From Planctomycetota bacterium (GTDB lineage: Bacteria > Planctomycetota > MHYJ01 > JACPRB01), in contig JACQVR010000094.1 of NCBI GenBank assembly GCA_016209705.1, forward strand, positions 64 to 64,063: DNA of 64,000 bases, in the 5' to 3' direction. The position numbers and the translations under genes are program-made. Shown here in pieces: positions 24,916 to 49,550 of the stretch (within the stretch, counting starts at the first letter, position 1; every line of letters begins with the position of its first letter). The notes under the pieces are model-generated. The model had not been told where the DNA came from. It worked only from the letters and a program-made list of their open reading frames with translations, and ran no database searches.

Positions 24916-24989
24916 TACGCCCGGCAGGAATCGAACCTGCAACCTACTGGTTCGTAGCCAGTCACTCTATCCAATTGAGCTACGGGCGC
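24916..24989 (-). tRNA. tRNA-Arg (anticodon ACG).
   Basis: Sense sequence is GCGCCCGTAGCTCAATTGGATAGAGTGACTGGCTACGAACCAGTAGGTTGCAGGTTCGATTCCTGCCGGGCGTA. It folds as a cloverleaf with anticodon loop CUACGAA and T-loop GGTTCGATTCC. The 1:72 pair is G:U. Confidence 0.85.
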
Positions 24990-27197: not shown

Positions 27198-27794
27198 ATG
27201 GGCACCGCGACGCCGATCGTTCGACTCATGAAGGCGCTCTCCAGGCTTCCGGGGATTGGAGAGAAGACCGCCGAGCGACTGGCGTTCTTCATCCATGCCC
27301 AGTCTCAAAGCGATGCGCTGGACCTGGCGGACGCCATCCGCGAAGTGAAAGAACGGCTGAGGTCCTGCTCGTTATGCTATGATATGACGATTGAAGATCC
27401 GTGCGCGATCTGCTCGGATGCGAAGCGGGACCGGGCCCTCGTCTGCGTCGTGGAGCAGTCGAAGGATCTCGGAGCGATCGAGAAGGCGGGAGCGTACCGC
27501 GGCCTTTACCATGTGTTGAACGGCCACCTCTCCCCGCTGGACGGCATCGGGCCCGAACAGCTCACGATCCGGCCGCTCGTGGAACGGGTCCGGAAAGGCG
27601 GAGTGGACGAAGTGATTCTGGCGACGAATCCTACGGCGGAAGGAGACGCGACGGCCTTTTACGTGCAGAAGGCGTTGACCCCTTTGGGCGCGAAGGTGAC
27701 CCGGATCGCCCGGGGCCTGCCTGCGGGATCCAGCTTCGAATACGCCAGCCGAACGATCGTCGCCGACGCGCTCAAGGGCCGGCGGGAGTTCTGA
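27198..27794 (+). CDS. recR: Recombination protein RecR.
   Basis: HhH motif LPGIGEKTAERLAFF, C4 zinc finger CSLCYDMTIEDPCAIC and a Toprim domain are present. Confidence 0.9.
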   Translation: MGTATPIVRLMKALSRLPGIGEKTAERLAFFIHAQSQSDALDLADAIREVKERLRSCSLCYDMTIEDPCAICSDAKRDRALVCVVEQSKDLGAIEKAGAYRGLYHVLNGHLSPLDGIGPEQLTIRPLVERVRKGGVDEVILATNPTAEGDATAFYVQKALTPLGAKVTRIARGLPAGSSFEYASRTIVADALKGRREF

Positions 27795-29341
27795 TGGTCA
27801 TGAAAATGGAAATCCATCTCCAGCAGCGACTCGAGCAGCGCCAGCAGCTCTCTCAGCAGATGCTGCAGAATCTGGAGCTGCTCCAGCTTCCGATCCTGCA
27901 GCTTCGCCAGAAGATCGACGAGGAACTCGAGGGAAACCCCACGTTGGAGCTGGGCGCCGAAATCGAGGAGCCTGGAGAGCCTGCGGCGCCCGTGGAAACC
28001 GCCGAACCCGCCGAATCGTCGGAAGAGGGAAAGCAGGAGTTTCTCGAAGCGGTCGAAGACGAATGGCTGCAAAGCGAGCGCCTCTATCCCCGCAGCCGCG
28101 GCGGGGAATCGGACGATTCCAAGTTCGAATTCCTCCAGAATGTCAGCGCCTCTCCCCTTTCCCTGCACGAATATCTGCGCGCGCAGCTTGCGCTGCTCGA
28201 AGTGGACCCGGACCTGCGGGTCTACCTGGAGCTTCTGATCGAACACCTCAACGACAATGGATATCTGGGAACGCCGCTCGAGGAAATCGTTCAGGCCGCG
28301 CCGGAGGAGATGCGGAAGCTCCCCCCGGAATTGCTGCTGAAGAAGTTCGAAACGGCGCTCGTCTTTCTGCAGAAAATGGAGCCGTTGGGGATCGGAGCGC
28401 GCACTCCCCGGGAATGCCTGCTTCTCCAGCTGGACGAAAGCGATTCGAATTACGCCGCCAAGCGGCGATTGATCGAGCGCCATCTGGAGGACATCGGCAA
28501 CAACCGCCTTCCGAAAATGGCGCGCGACATCACCGCCGACCCCGAGGCGCTGGCCGACTTCGGATACAAGCCGGGCGCCGATCCCGAGATCATCCTGGAG
28601 GACATCAAGATCCTGATCGGCGAGATCCAGAAACTGAATCCCCATCCCGGCGCGAACTTTTCGACGGAAAGCAATCCGCGCGTCTATCCGGAAGTCATCA
28701 TCCGCCCCATCGACGGGAAATTCGAGATCGTGATCGAGGATTCGTACCTCCCTCCCCTGTCCATCAACCGGACGTACCAGGAGATGCTCAAGGACAAGTC
28801 CCTGGGAAAGCCCGAACGGGATTACCTCCGCCGCAAGTTGGACGCCGGCCGCAAGCTGATCAGCGCGATCGAGCAGCGCCGCCACACCATTCGCCGCATC
28901 ACCGAAGAGATTCTGCGGCACCAGCTCGACTTCTTCGAGCGCGGCGCGGAATATTTGAAACCGCTCAAGATGCAGGAGGTCGCCGACGCCGTGGGAATCC
29001 ACGTCTCGACGGTCAGTCGGGCGATCTCCGGGAAGTGGATCGAGACGCCGCGGGGCATCTTCCCGATGAAATTCTTCTTCGCGTCCGCGGCGCCGCGGTC
29101 GGCCGGTCAGGCGCCGAGCTTCATCGGCGGCGAGGCGCCTCCCCAGGATGATCGAACCCGCCTGGCGCTGATGGAAAAGCTGCGGGAGATCATCGACGCG
29201 GAGGACAAGAGGCGACCCCTGGCGGATCTGGAGATCGTCAAGCTGCTCCGGCAGCAAGGCCTCGCCGCCGCCCGGCGAACCGTCGCGAAGTACCGCGAAG
29301 AGATGGGGATCCCCAGCTCGAGATTGAGAAAGCAGTATTGA
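27794..29341 (+). CDS. rpoN: RNA polymerase sigma-54 factor.
   Basis: A Gln/Leu-rich region I leads to the C-terminal RpoN box ARRTVAKYRE. The start overlaps the recR stop. Confidence 0.9.
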   Translation: MVMKMEIHLQQRLEQRQQLSQQMLQNLELLQLPILQLRQKIDEELEGNPTLELGAEIEEPGEPAAPVETAEPAESSEEGKQEFLEAVEDEWLQSERLYPRSRGGESDDSKFEFLQNVSASPLSLHEYLRAQLALLEVDPDLRVYLELLIEHLNDNGYLGTPLEEIVQAAPEEMRKLPPELLLKKFETALVFLQKMEPLGIGARTPRECLLLQLDESDSNYAAKRRLIERHLEDIGNNRLPKMARDITADPEALADFGYKPGADPEIILEDIKILIGEIQKLNPHPGANFSTESNPRVYPEVIIRPIDGKFEIVIEDSYLPPLSINRTYQEMLKDKSLGKPERDYLRRKLDAGRKLISAIEQRRHTIRRITEEILRHQLDFFERGAEYLKPLKMQEVADAVGIHVSTVSRAISGKWIETPRGIFPMKFFFASAAPRSAGQAPSFIGGEAPPQDDRTRLALMEKLREIIDAEDKRRPLADLEIVKLLRQQGLAAARRTVAKYREEMGIPSSRLRKQY

Positions 29342-29410: not shown

Positions 29411-30400
29411 ATGACCGTCGAAGAACAAGCGCGCCGATTTCGCGAGGGCATCGAGCGGCTCCGCAAGGAGATCGGCAAGGTGATCGTGGGCCACGAGGAC
29501 GTGGTGTCGCAGGCGATCATCACGATCCTGTCCGGGGGCCATGCCCTGCTCGAAGGGGTTCCGGGCATCGGCAAGACGCTGCTGGTGCGCACGATCAGTC
29601 AAAGCCTGAGCCTGCGCTTCTCGCGCATCCAGTTCACGCCCGACCTCATGCCGGCGGACATCCTGGGCACGAACATCGTGGTGGAAGATCCCAGCGGGCG
29701 GAAGAGCTTCCAGTTCCAGAAGGGCCCGATCTTCGGCCATATCATCCTGGCGGACGAGATCAATCGGGCCACGCCCAAGACCCAGTCGGCGTTGCTGGAG
29801 GCGATGCAGGAAAAAGCGGTGACCGTGAGCGGGCAGCGCTATCCCCTGGAGGAACCGTTCTTCGTGCTGGCGACGCAGAACCCCATCGAAATGGAAGGAA
29901 CCTATCCCCTGCCCGAGGCCCAGATCGATCGCTTCTTCTTCAAGATCGAAGTGAAGGCGGCGACGCTGGCCGGGCTGCTGGAGATCATCGATCGCACCAC
30001 CGGCCGCGAGATTCCTTCCATTTCTCCCGTACTGCGCGGGGAGGATATCCTGGCGATGCGCGCGCTGGCGCGCGAGGTTCCCATCGCCTCCCACGTGAAG
30101 GAGTACGCCGCGCGCCTGGTCCTGGCCACGCATCCCACCGAGGGGGGAAGCGACGTAGCCCGCAAGTACGTCCGCTACGGGTCCAGCCCCCGCGGCGTCC
30201 AGGCCCTGGTGCTCGCGGGAAAGATCCTGGCGTTGATGAAAGGACGCTACAACGTGGCCTTCTCGGACATCCGCGAGGCCTCCTACCCCGCCTTAAGACA
30301 CAGATTGATCCTGAACTTCGAAGCGGAGGCCGAAGGCGTCCGGCCCGACCAGATTCTCGGCCGGATCCTCGAAAAGACGCCCGACGCCATCCCGGCCTAG
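29411..30400 (+). CDS. MoxR-family AAA+ ATPase.
   Basis: Walker A GVPGIGKT and Walker B ILADEINRA are present. The size (329 aa) is typical. Confidence 0.85.
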   Translation: MTVEEQARRFREGIERLRKEIGKVIVGHEDVVSQAIITILSGGHALLEGVPGIGKTLLVRTISQSLSLRFSRIQFTPDLMPADILGTNIVVEDPSGRKSFQFQKGPIFGHIILADEINRATPKTQSALLEAMQEKAVTVSGQRYPLEEPFFVLATQNPIEMEGTYPLPEAQIDRFFFKIEVKAATLAGLLEIIDRTTGREIPSISPVLRGEDILAMRALAREVPIASHVKEYAARLVLATHPTEGGSDVARKYVRYGSSPRGVQALVLAGKILALMKGRYNVAFSDIREASYPALRHRLILNFEAEAEGVRPDQILGRILEKTPDAIPA

Positions 30401-30433
30401 GAGCGTGTCGACCCCATGAATCCGACACGCTCC
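30400..30433 (+). other. Stable hairpin directly after the moxR stop, an 11-bp perfect stem. Its first 16 nt recur at 36719-36734.
   Basis: GGAGCGTGTCG-(12 nt)-CGACACGCTCC, with no U-tract after it. The 16-mer CCTAGGAGCGTGTCGA also follows the stop of the gene ending at 36718. Confidence 0.4.
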
Positions 30434-30456
30434 TCGCCTTGGCGACCCCGCGCGCT

Positions 30457-30539
30457 TATGGTATGTTACATTCCATGTTACGTTTTATTCTCAAAACTTA
30501 TTGTAACGTTACAATATATTTTCAAAATATTTCGTAACA
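30457..30539. promoter_or_regulatory. AT-rich operator cluster A. It holds a perfect palindrome TTGTAACGTTACAA (30501-30514) and arrayed GTTAC/GTAAC half-sites separated by TTTTCAAAA-type cores.
   Basis: An ~85-bp island of >75% AT in a 68% GC genome, immediately upstream of the mscL-like gene and the DUF21-CBS-EIIA gene. The same motif grammar recurs at 34980-35012 and 39185-39280. Confidence 0.5.
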
Positions 30540-30548: not shown

Positions 30549-30815
30549 ATGGAGTTCGACCCGAAGACGCTGGTCAAGACGCCGGCGTTCGCGATCGCCG
30601 GGGGGTTCGTGCTGGGGGCCGCGGTGTTCGAGCTGATTCGGGGCGCGATCAACCATTTGATCGTCCCCTTCTTCAGCATCGTCGGCGACGGCGGGGGAAT
30701 ACGGATCGGCGACAGCATTTACATCGGGTGCGGCGGGTTCATTGGCGCGGTCATGGTGTTCGTGGTCGCGACCGCCGTCGGAGTGCTGATGATCCGGGTC
30801 GCGGCGAAGGATTGA
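30549..30815 (+). CDS. Small MscL-family-like membrane protein (88 aa, lacking the C-terminal cytoplasmic helix).
   Basis: AFAIAGGFVLGAAVFELIRGAINHLIVPFFSIV resembles MscL TM1 and the periplasmic loop. An RBS AGGAGGGAG lies upstream. Confidence 0.5.
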   Translation: MEFDPKTLVKTPAFAIAGGFVLGAAVFELIRGAINHLIVPFFSIVGDGGGIRIGDSIYIGCGGFIGAVMVFVVATAVGVLMIRVAAKD

Positions 30816-30852: not shown

Positions 30853-32424
30853 ATGATTCCCTCCCCGGCCCTATGCGCGCTTTCCGAAGCCGACGGCGCC
30901 TCGTCTTCCTGGCTTCAGCTCCTCTACCTCGCGGCGGCGGGCCTGCTGGTGCTGCTGAACGCGTTTTTCGTTCTCGCGGAGTTCGCCATCGTCAAGATTC
31001 GGGCGACCCAGATGCTCGAACTGGCGGAACGCGGCAACGCGAGAGCCGCGCTCGCCACCTCGATCGTCAAGCGCCTCGACGCCTACCTCTCCACCTGCCA
31101 ACTCGGCATCACCGTCGCGAGCCTGGGGCTGGGGTGGATCGGAGAACCCGCGTTCGCCACGTTGCTGAAACCTTGGTTGGACGCCCTTGGAATCTGGTCC
31201 CGGACGGTGACGACGTCGGTCGCCTTCGCGATCTCGTTCGCATTCGTCACCTTCATCCATGTCGTGATCGGCGAGCTGGCCCCCAAATCGATCGCGATCC
31301 GCCGGACCGAATGGGCCACCCTCTTCGCGGCGCGCCCCCTCCACTGGTTTTACCGGGTCACCTTCCCCGCCATGTGGCTCTTGAACGTGACCAGCAACGC
31401 CGTCCTCCGGCTGCTGCGCATCCCTCCGGTCACCGACATGGAACTGGCTCATTCCGAGGAAGAACTTCGCATGATCCTGGGCGCGTCCCACGAGAAGGGC
31501 GCCGTCACGCTCAATCGCCTGCTCATGATGGAAAACGTCCTCGACTTCGGAACGTTGACCGTGGCGGACGTCATGACGCCGGCCGAGCGGGTGATTTCCC
31601 TGTCCGCGGCCGCGCCGTGGTCGGAAACTTTCGACAAGATCCGGAAATCGCTCCACTCCCGCTATCCCCTGGACTTCGGGACCTCGAAGAAACGGGATCG
31701 CATGATCCATCTCAAAGACCTGCTGATCGCCGTGGCCGCCGGAAAACCGCCGGACTTGACCTCCATCGCCCGTCCGGTGCGCGCCGTCCGTCCCGACCTC
31801 TCCCTCGAGGACCTCCTCCAGCACTTCTATCGGAACCGCAGCCATCTCGCGATGGTGGAGGACGACGCGGGCCGGTTCCTGGGACTGGTCACCATCGAAG
31901 ACGTCATCGAAGAACTGATCGGAACCGTTCGCGACGAATTCGAGACGGTCAAGGAGTTCAATCTCTCCGACTTGGTCCCGCCGGGAGCGATCGCGCTCGG
32001 CCTCGAACCGATGACCAAAGAGCAGTCGATCCGAACCCTGATCGAAAGGCTGGCTCAGAAGCATCCGGAGTTGAACGTCCCGTTGATCGTCTCCACGATC
32101 CTTCGCCGAGAAACGCTCGCATCGACGGGTCTGGGTGAAGGCATCGCCATCCCGCACAGCCGCATTCCAGCCCTCTTGCGTCCGATGGGCGCGATCGGCC
32201 AATGGCCCCAGGGAATCGAATTTCAGGCGCTCGACGCCCACCCCGTCTACTTGATGTTCCTGATCCTGACGCCCGTCCATGACGAGGGCGTCCACGTGCA
32301 CATCCTGGGAAAGATCAGCGCCTTGCTCTCCAGCGATTACCTTCGCGAACGCCTCCGCCACGCCCAAAGCGTCGAGGAGGTACGGGAGGTGTTGCGGATC
32401 TCCGACCAGTCGCTGCCGGCGTGA
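30853..32424 (+). CDS. CNNM/DUF21 membrane domain plus CBS pair fused to a C-terminal PTS EIIA(Ntr/fructose)-type domain.
   Basis: DUF21 TM helices and a CBS pair are followed by GLGEGIAIPHSRIPAL (EIIA active-site His region). This replaces the usual CorC_HlyC terminus. Confidence 0.7.
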   Translation: MIPSPALCALSEADGASSSWLQLLYLAAAGLLVLLNAFFVLAEFAIVKIRATQMLELAERGNARAALATSIVKRLDAYLSTCQLGITVASLGLGWIGEPAFATLLKPWLDALGIWSRTVTTSVAFAISFAFVTFIHVVIGELAPKSIAIRRTEWATLFAARPLHWFYRVTFPAMWLLNVTSNAVLRLLRIPPVTDMELAHSEEELRMILGASHEKGAVTLNRLLMMENVLDFGTLTVADVMTPAERVISLSAAAPWSETFDKIRKSLHSRYPLDFGTSKKRDRMIHLKDLLIAVAAGKPPDLTSIARPVRAVRPDLSLEDLLQHFYRNRSHLAMVEDDAGRFLGLVTIEDVIEELIGTVRDEFETVKEFNLSDLVPPGAIALGLEPMTKEQSIRTLIERLAQKHPELNVPLIVSTILRRETLASTGLGEGIAIPHSRIPALLRPMGAIGQWPQGIEFQALDAHPVYLMFLILTPVHDEGVHVHILGKISALLSSDYLRERLRHAQSVEEVREVLRISDQSLPA

Positions 32425-32428
32425 CGCT

Positions 32429-32803
32429 TCAGAAGAGATCCTTGGCCGCCGCGGCGCACAGTGCCGCGCCGATCAGGTAGACCGCCGCGCCGACGAGCAG
32501 GACGGCGCGACCGAGTCCCAAAACGTCGGAGCGAAAAAGGCCGGCCGCCAGGAAGGCCGCGCCGGTCGCGGCGAAGACGACTTGACTGATCGCCCACCGG
32601 CGGAGGGTGAGTTCCTGCGACAGCGCCTCGACTCCGTAGCCGATGAACGCGAGGCCGCCGGCCAGGATCGCCGCGATCTTCAACCACCACGGCAGCGTCT
32701 CCGCGGGCACGTTCCATAACAGGGCCCCGGCCGCCAGGACCAGTCCGAACCAACACACGGCGGCCGTGACGGACGTGGCTCGATCCGCGTCGCGAAAGGA
32801 CAT
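32429..32803 (-). CDS. Small hypothetical membrane protein (4 predicted TM segments).
   Basis: The ORF is hydrophobic and 124 aa long. No recognisable motif was found. Confidence 0.45.
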   Translation of the reverse strand: MSFRDADRATSVTAAVCWFGLVLAAGALLWNVPAETLPWWLKIAAILAGGLAFIGYGVEALSQELTLRRWAISQVVFAATGAAFLAAGLFRSDVLGLGRAVLLVGAAVYLIGAALCAAAAKDLF

Positions 32804-32924
32804 GACGCTACTATACCCGCGGAACGCTCCGCGCCGTTCGCAAATCCGAGACCGCGTGCGGACACAAATTCTTGCGCTTCATCCTGTTCTCACTACAATG
32901 TGCGCGCGAGCCGCGCGCACTCTT

Positions 32925-34037
32925 ATGGGACTATCCGACGACAACGTGCTTCAACCGCTGAACGCCGCGAATCGCAGGCAGAAGAAAGCGCTCTTTCGGC
33001 AACCCGTCCGGCCCCTCGCCCTGCGCCCGAACACCACCGTCGCCGACCTGGTCGAGGGCATGGCGGGCATGTCCATCCAGGCGCGCAACATCGGGCAGTG
33101 CGCGCAGGTCCTCGAGCGCATGCTCAAAGACCCGGCTCGCCCGACGGTTTTTCTCGGACTGGCTGGTCCGTTGATCGCGGCGGGCCTGCGCAAAGTCATC
33201 CGCGACCTCATCGAAGCGGGCGTCGTGGACGTCGTCGTCTCCACCGGCGCGATCTTGTATCAGGATATTTATCAGGCGCGCGGCTTCCGCCATTATCAGG
33301 GCGACGTGGATGCGGACGATTCGGCGTTGCGCGATCTGTACATCGACCGCATCTACGATACCTACGTCGACGAGGAGAAATTCTGGGATACCGACGTGTG
33401 GTGCGGGGAGCTGGCGAACGAGCTCCCGCCCGGCCCTACCTCCAGCCGGGCGTATCTGGATTTCGTCGCGTCGCGCCTTGAGGACGATGAGTCGATTCTG
33501 GTCACCTGCCGGAAGCACGGCGTCCCGGTTTTCTGCCCCGCGCTCAACGACAGTTCGATCGGCATCGGACTCACCCACCACCGCCATCTCGCGCATCGGG
33601 AAGGCCGCACGCCGCTGGCGATCGACTCGATCCGCGACAACTACGAGCTGACCCAGATCGTCGTGCAATCGAACATGACGTCCGCCATCTACATCGCCGG
33701 AGGCGTTCCCAAGAACTACATCAACGACTCCGTGGTCATGAGCTACATCTTCGGCCTGGAGCGCGGCCATGAATACGCGGTTCAAGTGACCACGGCCGTG
33801 ACCGCGGACGGCGGGCTGTCCAGCTCGACACTTTCCGAAGCCCGCTCGTGGGGCAAGATCAAGAAGGAAGCCAAGTTCGCGATGGCGTGGGTCGAGCCCA
33901 GCGTCGCCTTGCCGCTGCTGGCGGGCTATGTGCTCCAGCGGAACCTGGCGAAGGGGCGCGGCCGGCTGCACCTCACGTGGGACGGCGAGATCCTCCGCGA
34001 GTTGCGCGCGGACCCGCGAAAGCACCGCGGCCGCTGA
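32925..34037 (+). CDS. Deoxyhypusine synthase-like (homospermidine-synthase-related) protein.
   Basis: DHS-family signature segments are present (GLAGPLIAAGLR, VSTGAILYQD, IAGGVPKNY). ATG at 32925 lies within track ORF 32643. Confidence 0.75.
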   Translation: MGLSDDNVLQPLNAANRRQKKALFRQPVRPLALRPNTTVADLVEGMAGMSIQARNIGQCAQVLERMLKDPARPTVFLGLAGPLIAAGLRKVIRDLIEAGVVDVVVSTGAILYQDIYQARGFRHYQGDVDADDSALRDLYIDRIYDTYVDEEKFWDTDVWCGELANELPPGPTSSRAYLDFVASRLEDDESILVTCRKHGVPVFCPALNDSSIGIGLTHHRHLAHREGRTPLAIDSIRDNYELTQIVVQSNMTSAIYIAGGVPKNYINDSVVMSYIFGLERGHEYAVQVTTAVTADGGLSSSTLSEARSWGKIKKEAKFAMAWVEPSVALPLLAGYVLQRNLAKGRGRLHLTWDGEILRELRADPRKHRGR

Positions 34038-34045
34038 ACCTTCGA

Positions 34046-34990
34046 ATGGCCAGAAAGACGCGATTCCTGAACATCCTCGTCACCGGCGGCGCCGGATTCA
34101 TCGGATCCAACCTCGTCCAGGCGATCCAGGCCCGCTGGCCGTCGGCCCTGCTGACCGTGGTCGACGACTTTCGCTCGGGACACTTCAAGAATCTCACCGG
34201 CTTCCGCGGAGACGTGGTGGCAGCGGACATCGGAGCCTGGGAGTCGTCCGAGAAATACGACTGCATCTTCCATCTGGCCTCGATCACCGACACCACGATC
34301 AGCGATCAATTCCGGATGGTGCGGGACAATGTGGAAGGCTTCCGCAGCGTCTTGAGGATGGCCCGCAGAATGAAGGCGATCGTGGTGTACGCCTCCAGCG
34401 CCGCGACGTACGGGCAGGCGAACGAGCGCGCGTTGGAAACGTCTCCCGCCCTTCCGACGACCGCGTACGCGTTTTCGAAGGTCGTCCTGGATCACCTGGC
34501 GGAGCGCGCGCGCTGGGACGGAATGCGCGTCGAGGGGGTTCGGTACTTCAACGTCTACGGCCCCCACGAGGCGCACAAGGGGGCGGCGGCCAGCATGATC
34601 TATCAGCTCGCCGCGCAGATGCGGAAGGACCGCCGGCCGCGAATCTTCAAGCACGGCGAGCAGCGGCGCGATTTCATCTTCGTGGACGACGCCGTGCATG
34701 CCACGCTCCTGGCGGCCGAGCGTGGAAAGAACGCCGTCTACAACGTCGGCACCGGACGCGCCCGGTCGTTCAACGAAGTCATCGACGCGCTGAACTCGGC
34801 CCTGGGAACGCGCCTGGAGCCGGAGTACTTCGACAATCCCTACGATTTCTATCAGGACTACACCGAAGCCAACATCGCCCGGGCCCGCGCCGACCTCGGC
34901 TTCACCGCCGCCTTCGGCCTCGAAGACGGAGTGCGCGAATACCTCCAGCGCCTCGGATGGACGCGCGCCGCCCATCGCCTGTTACAATAA
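34046..34990 (+). CDS. NAD-dependent epimerase/dehydratase (HldD/ADP-heptose-6-epimerase-like SDR).
   Basis: Rossmann motif ILVTGGAGFIGSNL is present, with YAFSK in the catalytic YxxxK position. Confidence 0.8.
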   Translation: MARKTRFLNILVTGGAGFIGSNLVQAIQARWPSALLTVVDDFRSGHFKNLTGFRGDVVAADIGAWESSEKYDCIFHLASITDTTISDQFRMVRDNVEGFRSVLRMARRMKAIVVYASSAATYGQANERALETSPALPTTAYAFSKVVLDHLAERARWDGMRVEGVRYFNVYGPHEAHKGAAASMIYQLAAQMRKDRRPRIFKHGEQRRDFIFVDDAVHATLLAAERGKNAVYNVGTGRARSFNEVIDALNSALGTRLEPEYFDNPYDFYQDYTEANIARARADLGFTAAFGLEDGVREYLQRLGWTRAAHRLLQ

Positions 34991-35012
34991 GTTTTGAAAA
35001 TTATTTGTAACA
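34980..35012. promoter_or_regulatory. AT-rich operator B. It is one GTTACA-N22-TGTAACA dyad with a TTTTGAAAA core, overlapping the epimerase stop and directly upstream of selenoprotein candidate 3.
   Basis: Sequence is TGTTACAATAAGTTTTGAAAATTATTTGTAACA. It follows the same grammar as operator clusters A and C. Confidence 0.45.
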
Positions 35013-35074
35013 CCTACGAAGGGCCGCCCGGCCGGTGTCTAAGCTGGAGATCCCAACTCCAGGAGATGAACGTC

Positions 35075-36718
35075 ATGAAAAAATTAGGTGGAGCCCTTCT
35101 TGCGGGCCTGGTGTGCTTGAGTCCTCTTTGGGCTCAGCAGGAAGATCTGAGGTCTATCGAAAAGGACCTCAAACAGGGACTTAAGGCCCAAGCCGAACGG
35201 GAAGTGGAAAAAGCCGTTCAAGCGCTGCACAAAATCAACACGCCGGAAGCGGTAAAAGTCCTGCTGAGAGGGTTGCGGGAACGCCTGCTCCCCAGCACGT
35301 ACTGGATCCTGGTCCGCGGAGCCGCCGCCTTCTCTTCCCCCGACGCCTTGGGCGAAGTCACCGGCTACATCCTCAAATACAAGCAGACTCCCGTGGCGCG
35401 CGACATGGCGGCCGCGTTGCATGGAAATTGGACGCCCGCGTGCGAAGGCGCGCTCATCGCGATTCTGAACAAAGGGACGCCCGAACTCCAAGCGCTCGCC
35501 ACCGAGCACCTGATGGAAGTCGGCGCCAGGGATGCGGTGGAAGCGGTCCTCGCGCTGCTGAAAAAAGGCCGTCCCGGCCCGGACCTGTCCCGCAGACTGT
35601 TCCGCGTTCTCTCCGTGATCACCATCGGCGACTACGGAGACAGCCTTTCCAACTGGGAGGGCTGGTGGGAGGCGAACAAACACAAGGACTGGGGCGAACT
35701 CAAAGCCAAAGAAGGCCCCGGCTATCGCAGCGGAGGAGGAACCGTCACCGACAGCCTCGACAAAGCGCGCGATAAGGAAGTCGAGCAGCTCAAGAAAGGG
35801 AAAGTCCTCGTGCTGGGCGCGGGTAACAAATGCAAGGACGGGAAAAACCACGATCTGGATCGTATCGACTCGCTCATCAAGAAGATGGATCTTCAGGTCG
35901 ACTTCATCGACAAGATCGAGTTCTGCAAACCGTCATTCAAAGTCGACGATTACCTCTCCATCCTCTGCAACTGCACGTTCATCGAGGAACACTGCATCTG
36001 CCCGACTTGCAAACGCGGGCCGCCCGGAGACAAGCGCCGATTCCAGTGAGCGGGCTGCGACAAGCATGAAATAGTACGGTACGTACTAGATGAGGCCGGG
36101 CTGAACAAGATCCGCAAATATGTCGACGACGGGGGATATCTCTTCACCGAAGACTGGTGTCTCAAGGAAATCCTGGCGGCCAAGTTCAGCGAATTCGTCA
36201 ATCTGGGGCCGTATCTTCCCGAGATGAACGTCCCCATCTTCCCCAAACCGGGCGCCGGAACCCATCCCTACCTGCGGCGCATTTTCACGCGCCATCCGAA
36301 AGACCTCCGGCGCGGAGAAACGGGCACCGAGGAAGAGTTCGAACGGCTCACGCACGAGTGGAAGATCGACAACGAGAGCCCAGCGATTCGGATCACGAAC
36401 AAGCAGGCCGTCACCGTGCTGGTCTACTCCACGGAGGTGGGCAAGAAAGCGGGAGCGGAAGGAAGCGACGCGGTCGCGATCACGTTCGCCGTCGGCGCGC
36501 GGGGACCCGAGGCTAAAGATCCGGTGGCGACTGGCAAACCCATCGAGCAGGACCGGGCCAAGATGAGCGGCGGGCGGGTCCTGCACGTCATGAGCCACTT
36601 CGGCAAGCAGAAATCGGTCTCCGACGAGTACACGATCCAGAACCTGCTGCTGAACTTTCTGATCGAAGCCAGCGAGCGCCGCGGGTTTCAGAAGGAAGCG
36701 GCTCAGAAGAAGAAATGA
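35075..36718 (+). CDS. Secreted HEAT-repeat protein with a C-terminal Cys-rich GATase1/DUF4159-like region, read through an in-frame TGA (36047-36049) at a U-A-G-C (UxxC) motif. Candidate selenoprotein.
   Basis: RBS AGGAG precedes signal peptide MKKLGGALLAGLVCLSPLWA and HEAT-like repeats. Translation continues ...CNCTFIEEHCICPTCKRGPPGDKRRFQ-TGA-AGCDKHEIVRYVLDEAGLNKIRKYVDDGGYLFTEDWCLKEIL... in the same frame with no further stop until 36718. The segment after the TGA has no in-frame ATG until 36224, which would cut into the conserved GGYLFTEDWC block. Confidence 0.5.
36072..36088 (+). promoter_or_regulatory. Candidate bSECIS hairpin, 22 nt downstream of the TGA at 36047.
   Basis: UAGUAC-GGUAC-GUACUA is a 6-bp stem with apical loop GGUAC. 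The other two candidates carry GGUUC. Confidence 0.35.
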
Positions 36719-36834
36719 TCCCTAGGAGCGTGTCGAGACATTCAAGGGGATGTCGAGATATAGGGGATGCAGGTGATAAGACCCTCCATGCGTGGTACGG
36801 CACATCTCCATATCTCCAATATCCCGACAACCTC

Positions 36835-39159
36835 CTAGCGCATGAGGCGCCGCGCCGCTTCGACCACGTCCGAGGCTTTGGGGAGATGCGCCCACTCGAG
36901 GGGCGGCGCGTACGGCACCGGCTGGTCCGGAGCCGCCACCCGCGCGATCGGCGCTTCCAGTTCGTAGATCGCCTTCTCCGCGACGAGGGCCGCCAGCTCC
37001 GCGCCCGGCCCGCCGCGACGGGAATCCTCGTGCAGGACGAGGAGGCGGTGCGTCTTCGCGACGGAGTTCAGCAGTGCCTCCTCATCCAGCGGAACCAGCG
37101 AACGGAGATCGAGCACTTCGAGCGAGATGCCTTCGGCATGAAGCGTCTGAGCGGCGTCCAGCGCCGTCCACGCCATCGCGCCGTAGGTGGCGCATGTGAC
37201 GTCCTTCCCTTCGCGGCGCACTTCGGCTTTCCCGATCGGAACTTCAAAATCGCCCCCCAGCGGAACCTCTTCGAGCAGATCGGTCCGGAACAAGGAGTAG
37301 AGCCCCTTCGATTCCAGATAGATCACGGGATTCCCGTCGCGCACGGCCGCGACGAGCAAACCTTTCGCGTCGGATGGCGTGGACGGCGCCACGATCTTCC
37401 AGCCCGGAGTGCGCAAAAACCAAGCTTCCGGACACTGTGAATGAAACGGGCCTCCGCCCAGCAGGCGATTCATCGTTCCCGTCGCGCCCCCGTACGGCAG
37501 CCGCACGACCATCGGAACGCGCTTTCCGTACCTCCAATGGATCTTCGCCGCGTTGTTGACGAACGCGTTGAACCCCGGCGTCAGGAAATCCGCGAATTGC
37601 ATCTCGACGATCGGCCGCTTCCCCATCAGGGCCGCGCCTACCGCCGCGCCCACGATCGCCGACTCCGCCAGCGGCGTGTTCAGCACGCGGTCCGCCCCGA
37701 AGCGTTTCGCCAACCCGCGCGTCACGCCGAAGGCGCCGCCGTAGCGGCCGCCGACGTCTTCTCCCAGAAGAAAGACGCGCGGATCGGATTCCAGGAGTTC
37801 CGATAGCGCCAGACGCACCGCTTCGTCGTAGCCCGCCCGCTTCGTCGCGCGCGCAGAGGGAGGGGGCGTCGCATCCTCCCGCACGGCGAATACGCGTTCG
37901 ACCTGCGGAGCCGGATCCGGCCACGGCGCCGCTTCAACCTTTCGAGCGGCGGCCTCCACCACAGCGGCGACGTCCCGGCGCATCCGCTCGGGATCGCTCG
38001 CTTCCAGAATACCCTCGTCCAGCAGGCGCTTCTCATAAAGCTCGATGGGATCGGCCTTCTCCCATAAGGCCCGTTCCTCGTCGAGCTCGTAGCCGGGAAC
38101 CTTGTGTTGCGGGACGCCGTGAAAGCGTTCGTCGTCATGATGCGCGTGTCCCGCCCGGCGGTACGTCACGAGCTCGATGAGCGCCGGCCCCTTGCCGGCC
38201 CGGGCGCGCTCCGCCGCCCACGCGGTCGCGGCGGCGATCTCGTCGGGGTCGTTGCCGAAAATCGTGAGGCCGGGGATCCCGTATCCGGCGCCTTTCGCCG
38301 CGAACCGGCGCGCGGCGGTCTGCTCGCTCCAGTGCGTCCCCAGCGCCCAGTGGTTGTTCTGGACGAAGAAGATCATGTTCAGTCGCTGCGCCGCCGCGAA
38401 ATTGATGGCCTCGTGCCATTCGCCCAGACTGGATCCCCCTTCGCCGATGAACGACACGGCCACGCGATCGCTCCGGTCGAGCTTGAAGGCGTACGCGACG
38501 CCGATCAGCGTCTGCGTGGCGATGGCCAGGGGCGCCGTCGCCGGCAGCACGCCGCATTCCAGATCGCCGATGTGCAGATCGCGCCCTCCCATGGGACCGC
38601 CGAGTTTGCCGGATTGCGCGCAGAGGACGTTCTCGACGTCGCCCGACCACATGAGCTGGACGCCGACGTCACGAATGATGGGCGCGACGAGGTCCCCGCC
38701 CGGCCCGCGGCGCAGTCGGGCCGCGACGCCCACGATCGCCTCCTGCCCCCAGGAACGAAATCCTTTTTGGGGCGAGGGATAGACCGTCCCGTCGGGAGCC
38801 GTCCAGGCGATCTTCTTTTCGACGAACCAGCGCTTGCACAGGTTGTCGACCTCGCGCGTCAGCAACATGCCACGATACATCTCGCGGCGCTCGCCGGCGG
38901 TGAGCGACTTCTTGATCTCCCGCCGCCGCACGAATCCGTCGAGCTGCTCCAGCAGCGCCTCGCGGGTCCAACCCGCCGCCTCGCCGGCGGTGACGCCGGG
39001 CCACAGCGGCGTGGGATCGGCGGAGATGCGCTGGATGGCCTTGCGCAGGTCCCCCAGCGAGGTGGCCTCCGGAATCAGATACGGCGCCTCGACCGCCAGG
39101 AAATCGAGCAAGGCGCGATCCACGCCAGGGGGAGCTTTCGGCATGCCGAGCGAAAACAT
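36835..39159 (-). CDS. Fused 2-oxoacid dehydrogenase E1 component alpha+beta (TPP-dependent; BCKDH/acetoin-DH type).
   Basis: The N-terminal half carries a TPP-binding E1-alpha region (GDLECGVLPATAPL, IGEGGSSLGEWHEA). The C-terminal half is E1-beta/transketolase-like (LGEDVGGRYGGAFGVTRGL). A single 774-aa ORF. Confidence 0.85.
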   Translation of the reverse strand: MFSLGMPKAPPGVDRALLDFLAVEAPYLIPEATSLGDLRKAIQRISADPTPLWPGVTAGEAAGWTREALLEQLDGFVRRREIKKSLTAGERREMYRGMLLTREVDNLCKRWFVEKKIAWTAPDGTVYPSPQKGFRSWGQEAIVGVAARLRRGPGGDLVAPIIRDVGVQLMWSGDVENVLCAQSGKLGGPMGGRDLHIGDLECGVLPATAPLAIATQTLIGVAYAFKLDRSDRVAVSFIGEGGSSLGEWHEAINFAAAQRLNMIFFVQNNHWALGTHWSEQTAARRFAAKGAGYGIPGLTIFGNDPDEIAAATAWAAERARAGKGPALIELVTYRRAGHAHHDDERFHGVPQHKVPGYELDEERALWEKADPIELYEKRLLDEGILEASDPERMRRDVAAVVEAAARKVEAAPWPDPAPQVERVFAVREDATPPPSARATKRAGYDEAVRLALSELLESDPRVFLLGEDVGGRYGGAFGVTRGLAKRFGADRVLNTPLAESAIVGAAVGAALMGKRPIVEMQFADFLTPGFNAFVNNAAKIHWRYGKRVPMVVRLPYGGATGTMNRLLGGGPFHSQCPEAWFLRTPGWKIVAPSTPSDAKGLLVAAVRDGNPVIYLESKGLYSLFRTDLLEEVPLGGDFEVPIGKAEVRREGKDVTCATYGAMAWTALDAAQTLHAEGISLEVLDLRSLVPLDEEALLNSVAKTHRLLVLHEDSRRGGPGAELAALVAEKAIYELEAPIARVAAPDQPVPYAPPLEWAHLPKASDVVEAARRLMR

Positions 39160-39184: not shown

Positions 39185-39280
39185 TGTTACAAAACATTTT
39201 CAAAATATATCGTAACGTTACAATATATTTTGAAAACTATTTGTAACTGTTACATAAAGTTCTCAAAACTTATTGTAACG
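39185..39280. promoter_or_regulatory. AT-rich operator cluster C. Three consecutive GTTAC-N19/20-GTAAC dyads including TCGTAACGTTACAA, in the divergent region between the E1 fusion gene and trpD.
   Basis: Sequence is TGTTACAAAACATTTTCAAAATATATCGTAACGTTACAATATATTTTGAAAACTATTTGTAACTGTTACATAAAGTTCTCAAAACTTATTGTAACG. A TTGACA -35 box follows at 39282. Confidence 0.5.
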
Positions 39281-39436
39281 CTTGACAGGGAACGGGGCGG
39301 CTGATTGAATGCCGCTTGCTATGAAACGTTCCGCCACGCGACGCACGTCCGGCATGTGGCGACGCTCTGCCTAGGGCGGAGAACGTTCAGCGTTCCTGGC
39401 CTTCCCTCTTTCGTTCCCGATCCCCGTGGGAACCCG

Positions 39437-45507: not shown

Positions 45508-46680
45508 TTATCCGGCTATCCTCTGGAGCCATTCTCCAGGGTTGCATACGAGGAGGGATGGATTTTCGATCTTGCGCGCGATTCGGCAGACGAGAACGCG
45601 GCGCTTTGCCTGGATCATGTCCGCCGTTTTGTTCAACCGTTCGATCTCTTCAGTCGAGGGATTAGAGGTCAGCTTGATCTCGACGGCCCACGATTCTCCG
45701 CCTTTTTCCAGCACGAGGTCCAATTCGTAGCCGTCCGACGTGCGGAAGAAATAGGCGCGATCTTGCTTGCCTACGGCGGAGAGCGCGGCGAGCGTTTGCT
45801 CGATCACGAAGCCCTCCCAGCTTGCGCCCAGCCAGGGCTGGCGATACAGGTGATCGAGATCGTTTACCCCCATCAACGAGTGAAGCAGGCCGCTGTCCCT
45901 CCAGTAAACGCGGGGCACCCTGACGAGGCGCTTCCTGATGTTCTTGAAATAAGGTTGGAGCCTATGGATGAGGAAGGCGCCCTCCAGGTAATCGCAATAT
46001 CGGATGACGGTCTTGTGGTCCAGCGCCAGGCTTGACCCGAGCTGGGAGGCGTTCAGCGGTTGTCCCTGGATGGAGGCGAGCATGTGCAGCAATCGAAGCA
46101 GCAACTGCGGTTTGGCCGGCAGGCCCCACGTGGGAAGATCGCGCGTCACCTGCGTGTTCAAATAATCCCGCTGCCATTCGGGAAACATCCGAGCGTCGAG
46201 AATCCCGCCGTCGGGATAGCCGCCGCGAAGCCACAGATCATCGATTTGGTCAGGTGCAAGTTCGGGCAAAATGAAGGGACTCATCATGACCAGTCCCATT
46301 CGGCCGGCCAAGGATTCTGAGACATTCTCCATCAACGCCGGGGAGACCGAGCCCAGAAGCAGGAAGCGTCCGTTTCGCTTTCGGTCCGCATCGATGGCCC
46401 CGCGCAGCCGCGAAAAAACCTCGGGGGCTTGCTGGACCTCGTCGAGAACGATCAATTTTTTGCCCGCCACCAAGGCATCCCATTCGGCGTCGAGGCGGGC
46501 TTCGCCGCCGTCCGTTTCCAGGTCGAAATAGACGCCTTCGAAGCCGCGGGCGAGCGTGGTCTTGCCGCATTGACGCGGCCCCAGAATACCCACGGCGGGG
46601 AACTTCCCGAGCTTGTCCCGTACTTGGAGGGCATAGAGACGGGGAATCATTTCTTGTATTATGGGAATTCGTTCCCACAT
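45508..46680 (-). CDS. AAA-family ATPase (AAA_14 plus DUF4143 type).
   Basis: Walker A GPRQCGKTT, Walker B LIVLDEVQ and a DUF4143-like C-terminal domain are present. Start MWERIPII. Confidence 0.75.
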   Translation of the reverse strand: MWERIPIIQEMIPRLYALQVRDKLGKFPAVGILGPRQCGKTTLARGFEGVYFDLETDGGEARLDAEWDALVAGKKLIVLDEVQQAPEVFSRLRGAIDADRKRNGRFLLLGSVSPALMENVSESLAGRMGLVMMSPFILPELAPDQIDDLWLRGGYPDGGILDARMFPEWQRDYLNTQVTRDLPTWGLPAKPQLLLRLLHMLASIQGQPLNASQLGSSLALDHKTVIRYCDYLEGAFLIHRLQPYFKNIRKRLVRVPRVYWRDSGLLHSLMGVNDLDHLYRQPWLGASWEGFVIEQTLAALSAVGKQDRAYFFRTSDGYELDLVLEKGGESWAVEIKLTSNPSTEEIERLNKTADMIQAKRRVLVCRIARKIENPSLLVCNPGEWLQRIAG

Positions 46681-46889
46681 TGCAATAATTACTGAAAACA
46701 TGGCGCAACCTTTACGGATGGGTTTCGCGCGGACTTCAGGTATTTTTCAAGACAGCCATAAATTTGTAACGATCTTTCTTGAGATGTATGTCTTTCCCCC
46801 AACGATCTCGCTACATAAATGTTTTACTTGACAATTGCTGATTTATAACTATATTAAGTTAGCTGTAAGTGTTTTTCACAAACCACGCC

Positions 46890-49118: not shown

Positions 49119-49478
49119 TTATCGATACGCATATTCCGGCCGGTATGAAACCACCTCGATCTCCAGGCCGTCCGGGTCCATCACGTAGACCGCATCCCCC
49201 TCCTTCCGCGACGCCGACTCCGCGATTTCGATTCCTTCCCGTTTCAGGCGTTCCCGGAACGTCGCCAGATCGGTCGTGACGAATCCCACATGAGCGAAGA
49301 AGCCGGTCGATCCGCCGGTTCCTCCCTCCGTGAGGGCGACGTAGAACCGGTCCGTCCCGATGTGCACGGTCCGGCCGTACGGTCCCACCCCATCGTACCG
49401 GACGGCGAATCCGAACGCTCGCCGGTAGAAATCGGCGCTGCGGTCGACATCCGCGACGGACAAGTGGATGTGCTCCAT
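49119..49478 (-). CDS. VOC (glyoxalase/bleomycin-resistance/dioxygenase) family protein.
   Basis: A paired beta-alpha-beta-beta-beta module is present, with HIHLSVADVDRSADFYRRAFGF and the metal-binding Glu near the C-terminus. Confidence 0.7.
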   Translation of the reverse strand: MEHIHLSVADVDRSADFYRRAFGFAVRYDGVGPYGRTVHIGTDRFYVALTEGGTGGSTGFFAHVGFVTTDLATFRERLKREGIEIAESASRKEGDAVYVMDPDGLEIEVVSYRPEYAYR

Positions 49479-49550
49479 GCGCTCCGCGACGGCCCGAGAA
49501 TCCGGACCCAGGGCGAGGTTTTCCACGGCGATTCTCCTTAAATCTTATCT

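What the first reader, a model, noticed from the sequence alone, without database searches (positions are those of the whole stretch)
30457..30539. AT-rich GTTAC-N19/20-GTAAC palindromic operator arrays at three loci, including a perfect TTGTAACGTTACAA
In a 68% GC genome, three >75% AT islands share one grammar. They lie at 30457-30539, 34980-35012 and 39185-39280. Each shows GTTAC(A/G) and (C/T)GTAAC half-sites spaced about 19-20 bp apart around TTTT(C/G)AAAA cores. The 14-bp palindromes TTGTAACGTTACAA and TCGTAACGTTACAA resemble LacI/CcpA-type operators (TGTAA-CG-TTACA). The sites sit upstream of the mscL-like/DUF21-CBS-EIIA genes, directly upstream of selenoprotein candidate 3, and in the divergent region between the E1 fusion and trpD. 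A half-site (TTTGTAACGATC) also occurs in the Fic promoter region near 46760. This suggests a regulon controlled by one dimeric or oligomerising DNA-binding protein.
Basis: seen in the sequence. Interest (0 to 1): 0.6.

Follow-up and report, generated by a model that had tools for sequence, protein, structure and literature searches.

The report
AT-rich 31-bp palindromic promoter-like modules
Six copies of a 31-bp AT-rich palindrome (GTTAC-N21-GTAAC) sit in three gene-upstream gaps of an uncultured Planctomycete contig; their arms match this lineage's own extended -10 promoter box, so they look like promoter/operator modules specific to this lineage, not LacI/CcpA-type operators.

Summary
Six 31-bp units GTTAC-N21-GTAAC lie at 30477-30538 (2), 34981-35011 (1) and 39186-39279 (3); shuffles give none. 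The window is 63% GC, not 68%.

The conserved entity is the 31-mer (consensus GTTACAATAWRTTTTSAAAAYWTATTGTAAC). The CG-centred 14-mer arises only where two units abut. It does not match the cre consensus, so the LacI/CcpA reading fails.

Differences between half-sites pile up in a 6-bp AT-rich spacer (24, against 2 in the GTTAC and TTYT blocks). The arms do not co-vary and the hairpins are weak. The constraint is therefore on double-stranded DNA sequence, not on a stem-loop.

The arm (T)GTTACAAT equals the extended -10 box TGnTAnAnT. In this window and its relatives, away from the units, that box occurs only just upstream of genes. Abutting units put two -10 hexamers back to back, and a -35-like TTYTCA lies 16 bp upstream.

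All three window loci lie 10-54 nt before a start codon (187 nt for trpD). The family is absent from seven of eight sampled relatives. In the eighth it lies between convergent stop codons, so it was dispersed rather than inherited in place.

Best reading (confidence about 0.4): copied, symmetric promoter/operator modules. Rivals are a dedicated-regulator operator regulon and a REP/MITE-like selfish repeat.

The parts
30464..30472 (+). TGTTACATT: an extra GTTAC with extended -10 form (TGnTAnAnT), 4 nt upstream of unit 1 and pointing towards the 88-aa gene
30477..30507 (.). unit 1, GTTACGTTTTATTCTCAAAACTTATTGTAAC; its centre TTCTCA is -35-like, 16 bp before TACAAT of unit 2
30508..30538 (.). unit 2, GTTACAATATATTTTCAAAATATTTCGTAAC; it ends directly at the AGGAGG ribosome-binding site, 10 nt before ATG 30549 of the 88-aa membrane-protein gene (first gene of the 88-aa/CNNM-CBS-EIIA pair)
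30501..30514 (.). junction palindrome TTGTAACGTTACAA: two back-to-back -10-like hexamers (TACAAT on each strand) 4 bp apart
   Evidence: geometry compared
34981..35011 (.). unit 3, a single unit, GTTACAATAAGTTTTGAAAATTATTTGTAAC. With the preceding T, its left arm is TGTTACAAT (34980-34988). It contains the epimerase stop codon (34988-34990) and lies 54 nt before ATG 35066 of the selenoprotein-candidate gene. It sits where relatives carry an AhpC-TSA gene with a TGTTA[CG]A[ACG]T promoter box.
39186..39216 (.). unit 4, GTTACAAAACATTTTCAAAATATATCGTAAC; 26 nt from ATG 39159 of the E1 gene (minus strand); its right arm reads TACGAT on the minus strand
39217..39247 (.). unit 5, GTTACAATATATTTTGAAAACTATTTGTAAC; it abuts unit 4 (junction TCGTAACGTTACAA, 39210-39223)
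39249..39279 (.). unit 6, GTTACATAAAGTTCTCAAAACTTATTGTAAC, 1 nt after unit 5; it shares its right 20 nt exactly with unit 1
39281..39309 (+). TTGACA-N17-TTGAAT, a sigma-70-like pair immediately after the array and facing trpD (annotated start 39467); this places the array in UP-element position
   Evidence: read; trpD start; not reported by the scan, which requires A at position 2 of the second hexamer
46679..46709 (.). degenerate unit ATTGCAATAATTACTGAAAACATGGCGCAAC (21 of 31 positions match the consensus, both pentamers mutated), in the AT-rich region between the DUF4143 ATPase gene and the Fic gene

Best explanation
The units are a lineage-specific, copied family of 31-bp AT-rich dyad modules that act on double-stranded DNA at transcription initiation.

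Each arm, (T)GTTACAAT, is the extended -10 box used by this group of Planctomycetes. Where two units abut (ATTGTAAC|GTTACAAT), two -10 hexamers lie back to back 4 bp apart. That geometry would start divergent transcripts about 29 bp apart. The centre of the neighbouring unit (TTYTCA) supplies a -35-like hexamer 16 bp upstream. An array is therefore a symmetric (bidirectional) promoter, and a single unit is a promoter plus its mirror image.

The units keep more than sigma-70 needs: T at -13, C at -10, the TTYT/AAAA block and a fixed 21-bp spacing. A symmetric DNA-binding protein probably also recognises the 31-mer and occludes or assists the promoter.

Shown:
- the units and their statistical significance;
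- block-wise conservation without arm co-variation;
- identity of the arms with a box that elsewhere in this lineage occurs only upstream of genes;
- the distances to start codons;
- presence/absence differences among relatives.

Inferred:
- binding by RNA polymerase and the initiation sites;
- the extra binding factor;
- spread by copying or recombination.
For: 1. Real and non-random: 6 units against 0 in shuffles, and 50.7-58 bits against 14.4 for the next site.
2. Constraint on DNA sequence blocks: among 12 half-sites there are 24 differences in the 6 spacer positions and 2 in the 9 block positions (p = 3e-8). The spacer stays 87.5% AT.
3. No hairpin selection: the two arms of one unit are no more alike in the spacer (2.83 of 6) than half-sites from different units (3.23 of 6). 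DNA hairpins of the six window units are only -0.7 to -5.7 kcal/mol, and one unit does not fold.
4. TG.TA.A.T occurs only 6 times in the window's 128 kb of both strands. The 4 sites outside the loci all lie just upstream of gene starts. In about 107 kb of relatives, every match outside the L019/L023 array is upstream of a gene, often 6-7 nt before the ATG, which suggests leaderless mRNAs.
5. TGTTACAAT is the commonest form of that box and is the unit arm.
6. Orthologous AhpC promoters in relatives that lack units read TGTTACACT, TGTTAGAGT, TGTTACAAT and TGTTAGACT, 26-40 nt before the ATG.
7. An independent consensus scan finds TTCTCA-16-TACAAT (30488-30515) and TTTTCA-16-TACAAT (39197-39224) across the two abutting junctions, with 0.1-0.4 expected.
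8. The T at -7 is intact in both arms at the two perfect junctions. In single unit 3 it is intact only in the arm facing the downstream gene (half-site list).
9. A back-to-back spacing that gives about 29 bp between divergent starts is one of the preferred bidirectional configurations reported for E. coli (bioRxiv 10.1101/2020.01.31.928960).
10. Locus 3 lies between divergent genes. Units end 10 nt (locus 1), 54 nt (locus 2) and 26 nt (E1) from start codons.
Against: - In the relative L019 the two units lie between the convergent stop codons of a 239-aa gene and E1, where no mRNA promoter is needed.
- The T at -7 is present in only 6 of 12 half-sites.
- The -35 matches are only 4 of 6 and lie in AT-rich DNA, where such matches are cheap.
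- Nothing in a promoter reading requires a palindrome or an exact 21-bp spacing in a lone unit.
- T at -13 and C at -10 are invariant in the units but variable in ordinary promoters of the lineage. This points to another reader of the sequence or to recent copying.
- There are no transcription data, and only four arrays in all.
Confidence: 0.4

Rival explanations
1. Pure operator regulon. A dedicated dimeric or tetrameric regulator, or an Lrp- or response-regulator-like oligomer, binds each 31-bp dyad. Arrays with a 31-bp period (three helical turns) allow cooperative binding. The likeness to the -10 box exists only because the operators overlap promoters.
For: - Strict N21 spacing in 6 of 6 units.
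- Invariant GTTAC and TTYT blocks one helical turn apart, with a free AT-rich spacer.
- T at -13 and C at -10 are fixed beyond what sigma-70 requires.
- All window loci are upstream of genes.
Against: - There is no conservation upstream of the orthologous genes in relatives. The MoxR/88-aa gap is 27-41 nt with no unit in L019, L021, L025 and L028, and the E1 5' region has no unit in L023, L024 and L026.
- The relative's array lies between convergent genes.
- The genes served are functionally unrelated.
- No candidate regulator lies next to any locus among the roughly 48 ORFs scanned.
Confidence: 0.25
2. Selfish or structural dispersed repeat. This would be a REP/BIME- or MITE-like extragenic palindrome spread by a transposase or by recombination, with promoter-likeness as a by-product of AT richness.
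For: - Presence/absence differences: only 1 of 8 sampled relatives has the family.
- Units overlap stop codons and change C-termini. The epimerase ends ...AHRLLQ* against ...GWAKA* in the relative, and L019 E1 ends ...RRLLQ* against ...RRLMR* in the window.
- Units occur in divergent, tandem and convergent gaps.
- They lie at points where gene content differs from relatives: AhpC is missing at unit 3, synteny breaks at locus 3, and the L019 array lies next to two genes absent from the window.
- Units from different loci share identical 20-mers.
- All three loci lie within 9 kb of the 64 kb.
Against: - Differences are not spread evenly, as neutral decay would give (24 against 2).
- There is no compensatory pairing and the hairpins are weak.
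- There is no GTAG or CGTC tag (definition in PMC3733652).
- No target-site duplication appears at any of the eight outer flanks.
- No Y1 or other transposase domain was found among the ORFs scanned, apart from a 100-aa IS630-like helix-turn-helix fragment at 50247-50549.
- The strict pattern is found nowhere else in the genome, metagenome or viral collections.
Confidence: 0.2
3. Site-specific recombination sites. The geometry (12-13-bp inverted arms around a 5-7-bp centre) resembles dif/lox/pdif sites that delimit exchangeable gene modules.
For: - The 31-bp dyad geometry.
- The arrays bracket two roughly 4-kb gene blocks and coincide with differences in gene content from relatives.
Against: - No recombinase gene was found among the roughly 48 window ORFs scanned.
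- Tandem abutting copies are not typical of such sites.
- The centre is symmetric, whereas recombination cores are usually asymmetric.
Confidence: 0.05
4. RNA-level element. The units would be hairpins in a 5' leader or a bidirectional terminator.
For: - Units lie at 3' ends of genes (locus 2 and L019).
- At locus 1 they could be transcribed from TGTTACATT.
Against: - No terminator-like site was found.
- No Rfam family matches.
- Stems are weak or absent and there is no co-variation.
- Locus 3 lies between divergent genes.
Confidence: 0.03

Closest known systems
Symmetric (bidirectional) sigma-70 promoters (Warman et al., bioRxiv 10.1101/2020.01.31.928960; PMC12825309)
   Same: Pseudo-palindromic AT-rich DNA carries -10 hexamers on both strands at a preferred offset. 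The junction gives about 29 bp between divergent starts, one of the reported spacings. Such promoters are enriched in recently acquired DNA.
   Different: - Here the module is a discrete 31-bp unit with exact length, repeated in tandem and at several loci.
- T at -13, C at -10 and a TTYT block are invariant, which promoters do not need.
- A lone unit has face-to-face, not back-to-back, -10 boxes.
- No transcription start sites are known.
REP/BIME elements (repetitive extragenic palindromes; PMC3733652)
   Same: These are 20-40-nt extragenic palindromes that are clustered, lineage-specific, variable between relatives, and found in all kinds of intergenic gaps.
   Different: - The units have no GTAG or CGTC tag.
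- They are AT-rich in a GC-rich genome.
- The stem is not maintained by compensatory change.
- No RAYT gene was seen.
- Copy number is unknown.
Correia elements (CREE) of Neisseria (my own knowledge, not tested here)
   Same: Small mobile inverted-repeat elements whose ends carry -10-like boxes and create promoters next to genes, and which sometimes overlap gene ends.
   Different: Correia elements are 100-155 bp with 26-bp terminal repeats and a TA duplication. The units here are 31 bp and show no duplication.
Repressor operators that mimic and overlap the -10 box, such as Fur, Zur, PerR and LexA boxes (my own knowledge)
   Same: AT-rich dyads overlap core promoter elements, sometimes in tandem, with blocks fixed and spacers free.
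   Different: Those sites are 15-20 bp and conserved upstream of orthologous genes. These are 31 bp and not positionally conserved.
cre / LacI-family operators
   Same: TGTAA...TTACA half-sites around a central CG at two junctions.
   Different: - The core is 2 bp shorter than cre and fails the consensus.
- The junction palindrome is a by-product of abutment.
- It is absent at locus 2 and in the relative.

Membership tests
LacI/CcpA-type operator (cre) | 14-nt consensus TGWAANCGNTNWCA with a central CG | tested here: not met
   0 matches in the window with up to 1 mismatch. TGTAACGTTACA is 2 bp too short.
LacI/CcpA-type operator (cre) | The CG-centred palindrome is the conserved entity at every site | tested here: not met
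   GTAACGTTAC occurs only at 30503 and 39212. Locus 2 has a single unit. The third boundary at locus 3 has a 1-nt spacer, and L019 has a 5-nt spacer.
LacI/CcpA-type operator (cre) | A LacI-family regulator encoded in the genome or nearby | tested here: inconclusive
   None among about 48 window ORFs scanned against Pfam. The rest of the genome is not available.
REP/BIME | 20-40-nt imperfect palindrome in extragenic DNA, often clustered | tested here: met
   31-bp dyads in clusters of 1-3, all intergenic, touching only stop codons.
REP/BIME | GTAG or CGTC tetranucleotide tag at one end (PMC3733652) | tested here: not met
   Unit ends are (T)GTTAC and GTAAC(A) (definition).
REP/BIME | Stem-loop kept by compensatory changes | tested here: not met
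   Arm identity in the spacer is 2.83 of 6 within units and 3.23 of 6 between units. Folding energies of the six window units are -0.7 to -5.7 kcal/mol.
REP/BIME | Hundreds of copies per genome and an associated RAYT transposase | not testable with these tools
   Only 64 kb of this MAG is held. No Y1 transposase was found among the ORFs scanned. The strict pattern is absent from the public collections.
MITE | Terminal inverted repeats plus a target-site duplication; usually more than 50 bp | tested here: not met
   No duplication at the eight outer flanks. The unit is 31 bp.
Extended -10 sigma-70 promoter | TGnTAnnnT box | tested here: met
   TGTTACAAT (34980) and TGTTACATT (30464) match, as do three of the four arms in L019/L023. 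Inner arms read CGTTACAAT or CGTTACGAT.
Extended -10 sigma-70 promoter | Located a short distance upstream of a start codon | tested here: inconclusive
   Met at all three window loci (10, 54 and 26 nt). Not met in L019, where the genes are convergent.
Extended -10 sigma-70 promoter | -35-like hexamer 16-18 bp upstream | tested here: met
   TTCTCA-16-TACAAT and TTTTCA-16-TACAAT at the two abutting junctions. The matches are only 4 of 6.
Extended -10 sigma-70 promoter | A mapped transcription start about 7 nt downstream | not testable with these tools
   No RNA data are available.
Intrinsic terminator | GC-rich stem followed by a T run | tested here: not met
   0 terminator-like sites at the three loci.
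Known RNA family (Rfam 15) | A match at the family's gathering score | tested here: not met
   The only match in the window is a tRNA at 24916-24989.
Tyrosine-recombinase core site (dif/lox-like) | 11-13-bp inverted arms around a 6-8-bp asymmetric core, with a cognate recombinase | tested here: inconclusive
   The geometry is compatible, but the centre is symmetric. No recombinase domain was found among the roughly 48 window ORFs scanned.

The most novel reading that the evidence does not exclude
The units may be a self-propagating 'portable promoter'. This would be a 31-bp palindromic cassette copied into intergenic gaps by an unknown recombinase or repair route. There it would replace gene ends and install a bidirectional promoter that a cognate symmetric protein controls. 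It would be a mobile cis-regulatory module far smaller than any known MITE, and it would rewire operons in an uncultured Planctomycete lineage.
Probability: 0.15. Interest if true: 0.7.

Novelty: new variant of a known kind. Interest (0 to 1): 0.4.

Why it matters
Promoters and regulators of Planctomycetes are almost uncharted, and most members are uncultured. A compact, easily recognised 31-bp module with three properties would be useful:
- it carries the lineage's -10 box on both strands;
- it sits directly before ribosome-binding sites;
- it differs between close relatives.

It would give a ready-made handle for mapping promoters in these genomes. It would supply a candidate bait for finding the cognate DNA-binding protein. 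It would also be a possible example of regulatory DNA that spreads by copying rather than by point mutation. If it proves to be only a decaying repeat, it still marks recent rearrangement points in this genome.

Tried and rejected
- **Strict-pattern scans.** I scanned the 185,579-species genome collection, the JGI metagenome collection and IMG/VR with GTTACNNNNNNTTYTSAAAAYNNNNNGTAAC. This gave 4, 14 and 0 stretches. All hits were single sites in unrelated DNA of 32-57% GC (most of them low-GC), none from a Planctomycete, so they are chance hits. The pattern was built from the window units and is too strict to catch the variant units of L019.
- **Look-up of the window's own contig.** Exact-protein look-up failed three times; the proteins are not on record.
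- **Peptide trick.** I translated the array (33 aa) and searched 1.84 billion protein representatives for ORFs called across similar arrays. The search returned only three unrelated tandem-repeat proteins.
- **Last protein search.** I used trpD with an E-value cut-off that was too strict (1e-100) and got only the self hit. I therefore could not examine trpD upstream regions in relatives.
- **Literature string search** for the palindromes found nothing relevant.
- **Readings tested and rejected:** Rfam, intrinsic terminators, hairpin or RNA structure and the cre/LacI consensus.
- **Considered from memory, not pursued.** BirA, NikR, Lrp/Ss-LrpB, OmpR/ArcA-type, Zur/Fur, parS, integron attC and IS608 TTAC targets. 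Each shares a fragment of the pattern but not the spacing or orientation, and none could be tested further here.

Full report
**Observation**

The three AT-rich islands exist as described. The pattern GTTAC-N{19,23}-GTAAC matches six times in the 64-kb window, always with N=21. The matches are at 30477-30507, 30508-30538, 34981-35011, 39186-39216, 39217-39247 and 39249-39279. None appeared in 100 dinucleotide-preserving shuffles.

A weight matrix built from the units scores them 50.7-58 bits. The next best site in the window scores 14.4. Tandem Repeats Finder reports a period-31 array at 39186-39280. The consensus is GTTACAATAWRTTTTSAAAAYWTATTGTAAC.

Several details need correcting:
- The window is 63.1% GC, not 68%.
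- The TTTTSAAAA core is exact in four of the six units.
- The lone GTAAC near 46766 is at chance level.

**Setting**

The window comes from an NCBI MAG named 'Planctomycetes bacterium', on a contig of 125,981 bp. Pfam annotation gives this gene order:

| Coordinates | Strand | Gene |
|---|---|---|
| 27401-29341 | + | sigma-54 |
| 29411-30400 | + | MoxR ATPase |
| 30457-30539 | | locus 1 |
| 30549-30815 | + | 88-aa membrane protein |
| 30853-32424 | + | CNNM-CBS-EIIA transporter |
| 32643-34037 | + | deoxyhypusine-synthase homologue |
| 33848-34990 | + | epimerase |
| 34980-35012 | | locus 2 |
| about 35075-36718 | + | about 548-aa gene with one in-frame TGA |
| 36835-39159 | - | fused E1 dehydrogenase |
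| 39185-39280 | | locus 3 |
| from 39467 | + | trpD, trpC, trpB, trpA |

- Unit 2 ends at the AGGAGG ribosome-binding site, 10 nt before ATG 30549.
- Unit 3 contains the epimerase stop codon and ends 54 nt before ATG 35066.
- Unit 4 starts 26 nt from the E1 ATG.
- No unit lies inside a coding region beyond the last three codons.

**What is conserved**

I aligned the 12 half-sites. GTTAC (positions 1-5) and TTYT (positions 12-15) are almost invariant, while positions 6-11 vary but stay 87.5% A/T. There are 24 differences in the 6 spacer positions against 2 in the 9 block positions (binomial p = 3e-8).

In the spacer, the two arms of one unit are no more alike (2.83 of 6) than half-sites taken from different units (3.23 of 6). 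Single-strand folding of the six window units gives only -0.7 to -5.7 kcal/mol, and unit 4 does not form the hairpin.

So the constraint acts on sequence blocks in duplex DNA. A stem-loop is not being maintained. This argues against an RNA element, a terminator and a classical REP hairpin. The scans agree: no terminator-like sites and no Rfam family. The uneven spread of differences also argues against neutral decay of a selfish repeat.

**The LacI/CcpA idea**

The CG-centred palindrome exists only where two units abut directly (30503 and 39212). Locus 2 has one unit. The third boundary at locus 3 has a 1-nt spacer. The relative has a 5-nt spacer.

The cre consensus TGWAANCGNTNWCA has no match in the window even with one mismatch. 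The 31-mer is the unit of conservation, and the 14-mer is a by-product of abutment.

**Relatives**

Homologues of the CNNM and E1 proteins reach only 71% and 81% identity at best, so the lineage is thinly sampled. I read about 107 kb around the syntenic genes in eight relatives.

Seven of the eight have no unit. In these relatives the MoxR/88-aa gap is 27-41 nt with no unit.

The eighth relative (L019/L023, JGI Ga0376077_0003555) has two units, GTTAC-N23-GTAAC and GTTAC-N21-GTAAC, 5 nt apart. They lie exactly between the convergent stop codons of a conserved 239-aa gene and E1, and both stop codons fall inside the arms. Its E1 ends ...RRLLQ* where the window has ...RRLMR*. The window's epimerase likewise ends ...AHRLLQ* where relatives end ...GWAKA*.

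A tblastx comparison shows three further links to gene-content change:
- Unit 3 sits where relatives carry an AhpC-TSA gene that the window lacks.
- The window also lacks the two genes next to the L019 array.
- Synteny ends at the E1 5' end, where locus 3 sits.

Units from different loci share identical 20-mers. The family was therefore dispersed or copied. It was not inherited in place, and it is not tied to orthologous promoters.

**The promoter link**

Seven of the eight outer flanks carry a T, which makes the arm TGTTACAAT. This is the extended -10 consensus TGnTATAAT with one change (the consensus is from my own knowledge).

The pattern TG.TA.A.T is rare: 6 sites in the window's two strands. 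The four sites outside the loci (1422, 53750, 53834, 55287) all lie just upstream of gene starts. In relatives, every match outside the L019/L023 array is upstream of a gene, often 6-7 nt before the ATG, which suggests leaderless mRNAs.

The orthologous AhpC promoters of relatives that lack units read TGTTACACT, TGTTAGAGT, TGTTACAAT and TGTTAGACT, 26-40 nt before the ATG. So the arm of the unit is this lineage's own promoter box.

Several features of the geometry fit a promoter:
- At an abutting junction (ATTGTAAC|GTTACAAT), two -10 hexamers lie back to back 4 bp apart. This predicts divergent starts about 29 bp apart, one of the preferred spacings reported for bidirectional promoters in E. 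coli.
- The consensus scan independently reports TTCTCA-16-TACAAT (30488-30515) and TTTTCA-16-TACAAT (39197-39224). Here the centre of one unit acts as the -35 and the arm of the next as the -10. The expected count is 0.1-0.4.
- The T at -7 is intact in both arms at the two perfect junctions, is lost at the imperfect third junction, and in unit 3 is intact only in the arm facing the downstream gene.
- Locus 3 lies between divergent genes. It is followed directly by TTGACA-N17-TTGAAT facing trpD, which places the array in UP-element position.

**What the promoter reading leaves unexplained**
- Ordinary promoters of the lineage vary at -13 and -10, yet all 16 half-sites keep T and C there.
- The 21-bp spacing is exact in the window.
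- A lone unit has face-to-face boxes.
- The L019 array has no gene to serve.

These points call for either a symmetric protein that reads the whole 31-mer, or recent copying of a fixed module, or both.

**Verdict**

I rank the explanations as follows:

| Explanation | Confidence |
|---|---|
| Copied, symmetric promoter/operator module | about 0.4 |
| Dedicated-regulator operator regulon | about 0.25 |
| REP/MITE-like repeat with no regulatory role | about 0.2 |
| Recombination site | 0.05 |
| RNA element | 0.03 |

No cognate protein gene (LacI, Lrp, RAYT or recombinase) was found among the roughly 48 window ORFs I scanned. The strict pattern is absent from the public genome, metagenome and viral collections apart from chance hits.

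The finding is a real cis-element family specific to this lineage. The LacI/CcpA comparison and the Fic half-site do not hold, and a regulon cannot be shown from this window.

Noticed in passing
window 35075-36718 (in-frame TGA at 36047-36049): The two ORFs 34994-36049 and 36224-36718 form one gene. It is homologous over its whole length, in a single frame, to a 550-aa protein of the relatives. It is interrupted only by one TGA followed by GCG GGC TGC, which would read U-A-G-C, a redox-type UxxC motif if decoded as selenocysteine. I did not look for a SECIS element or check the aligned residue in relatives.
   Followed up: partly
window 34990-35066 compared with L019 9202-9275 and L021 17261-17401: Relatives carry a 190-191-aa AhpC-TSA gene between the epimerase and the 550-aa gene. 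The window lacks it, and unit 3 sits at the junction. The window also lacks the saccharopine-dehydrogenase-like and amino-acid-permease genes between CNNM and the deoxyhypusine-synthase homologue, and the 143-aa and 239-aa genes before E1.
   Followed up: partly
window 30399-30434 and 36721-36736: A perfect 12-bp GC-rich inverted repeat (AGGAGCGTGTCG/CGACACGCTCCT, 12-nt loop) starts at the MoxR stop codon. The 16-mer CCTAGGAGCGTGTCGA recurs right after the stop codon at 36716-36718. This may be a second small repeat family at gene 3' ends.
   Followed up: partly
window 36790-36830 and 51440-51480 (opposite strand): The two stretches share about 40 nt, including TATCTCCAATATCCCGA. The nature of this repeat is unknown.
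   Followed up: no
window 54672-54719 and 56016-56063: A perfect 48-nt direct repeat, 1344 bp apart. One copy lies inside the ECF-sigma ORF 54565-55203 and the other overlaps the 3' end of the M48 peptidase ORF. This could be a duplication, the flanks of an inserted segment, or an assembly artefact.
   Followed up: no
window 8600-8632, upstream of 8638-9138: A Fur-family regulator gene is preceded by ATTGAAAATAGATTTCAATGAAAATGGATTTCA, a Fur-box-like dyad that is probably its own operator.
   Followed up: no
window 49551-49564: The perfect palindrome ACAGTATATACTGT lies in the divergent gap between a glyoxalase gene (49119-49526, minus strand) and a winged-helix regulator gene (49627-50250). 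It is a likely operator of that regulator.
   Followed up: no
L021 8565-8645 and 17269-17335; L028 295-353; L024 7410-7459; L029 about 3250-3350: Relatives that lack the 31-bp units carry other AT-richer simple repeats in intergenic gaps, such as GATTCTT or CTGATKT heptamer runs and GGATTGT runs. At least one lies after the epimerase gene, the same gap as unit 3. Intergenic repeat content turns over fast in this group.
   Followed up: no
L023 1701; L024 12763; L025 2409 and 15777: Extended -10 boxes (TGATAGAAT, TGATATAGT, TGGTAAAAT, TGCTATAGT) lie 6-7 nt before an ATG. This suggests that leaderless mRNAs are common in this lineage.
   Followed up: no
window 39321-39374: A short ORF (MKRSATRRTSGMWRRSA*) with one Trp codon lies in the 187-nt region between the array and the annotated trpD start at 39467. 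One Trp codon is too little to call it a trp leader peptide.
   Followed up: no
window 55225-55255: The best half-site outside the units is CTTACAGAAAATTTTC on the minus strand (18.7 bits). It lies in the leader of the ECF-sigma gene, downstream of its TGATAGAAT box.
   Followed up: no
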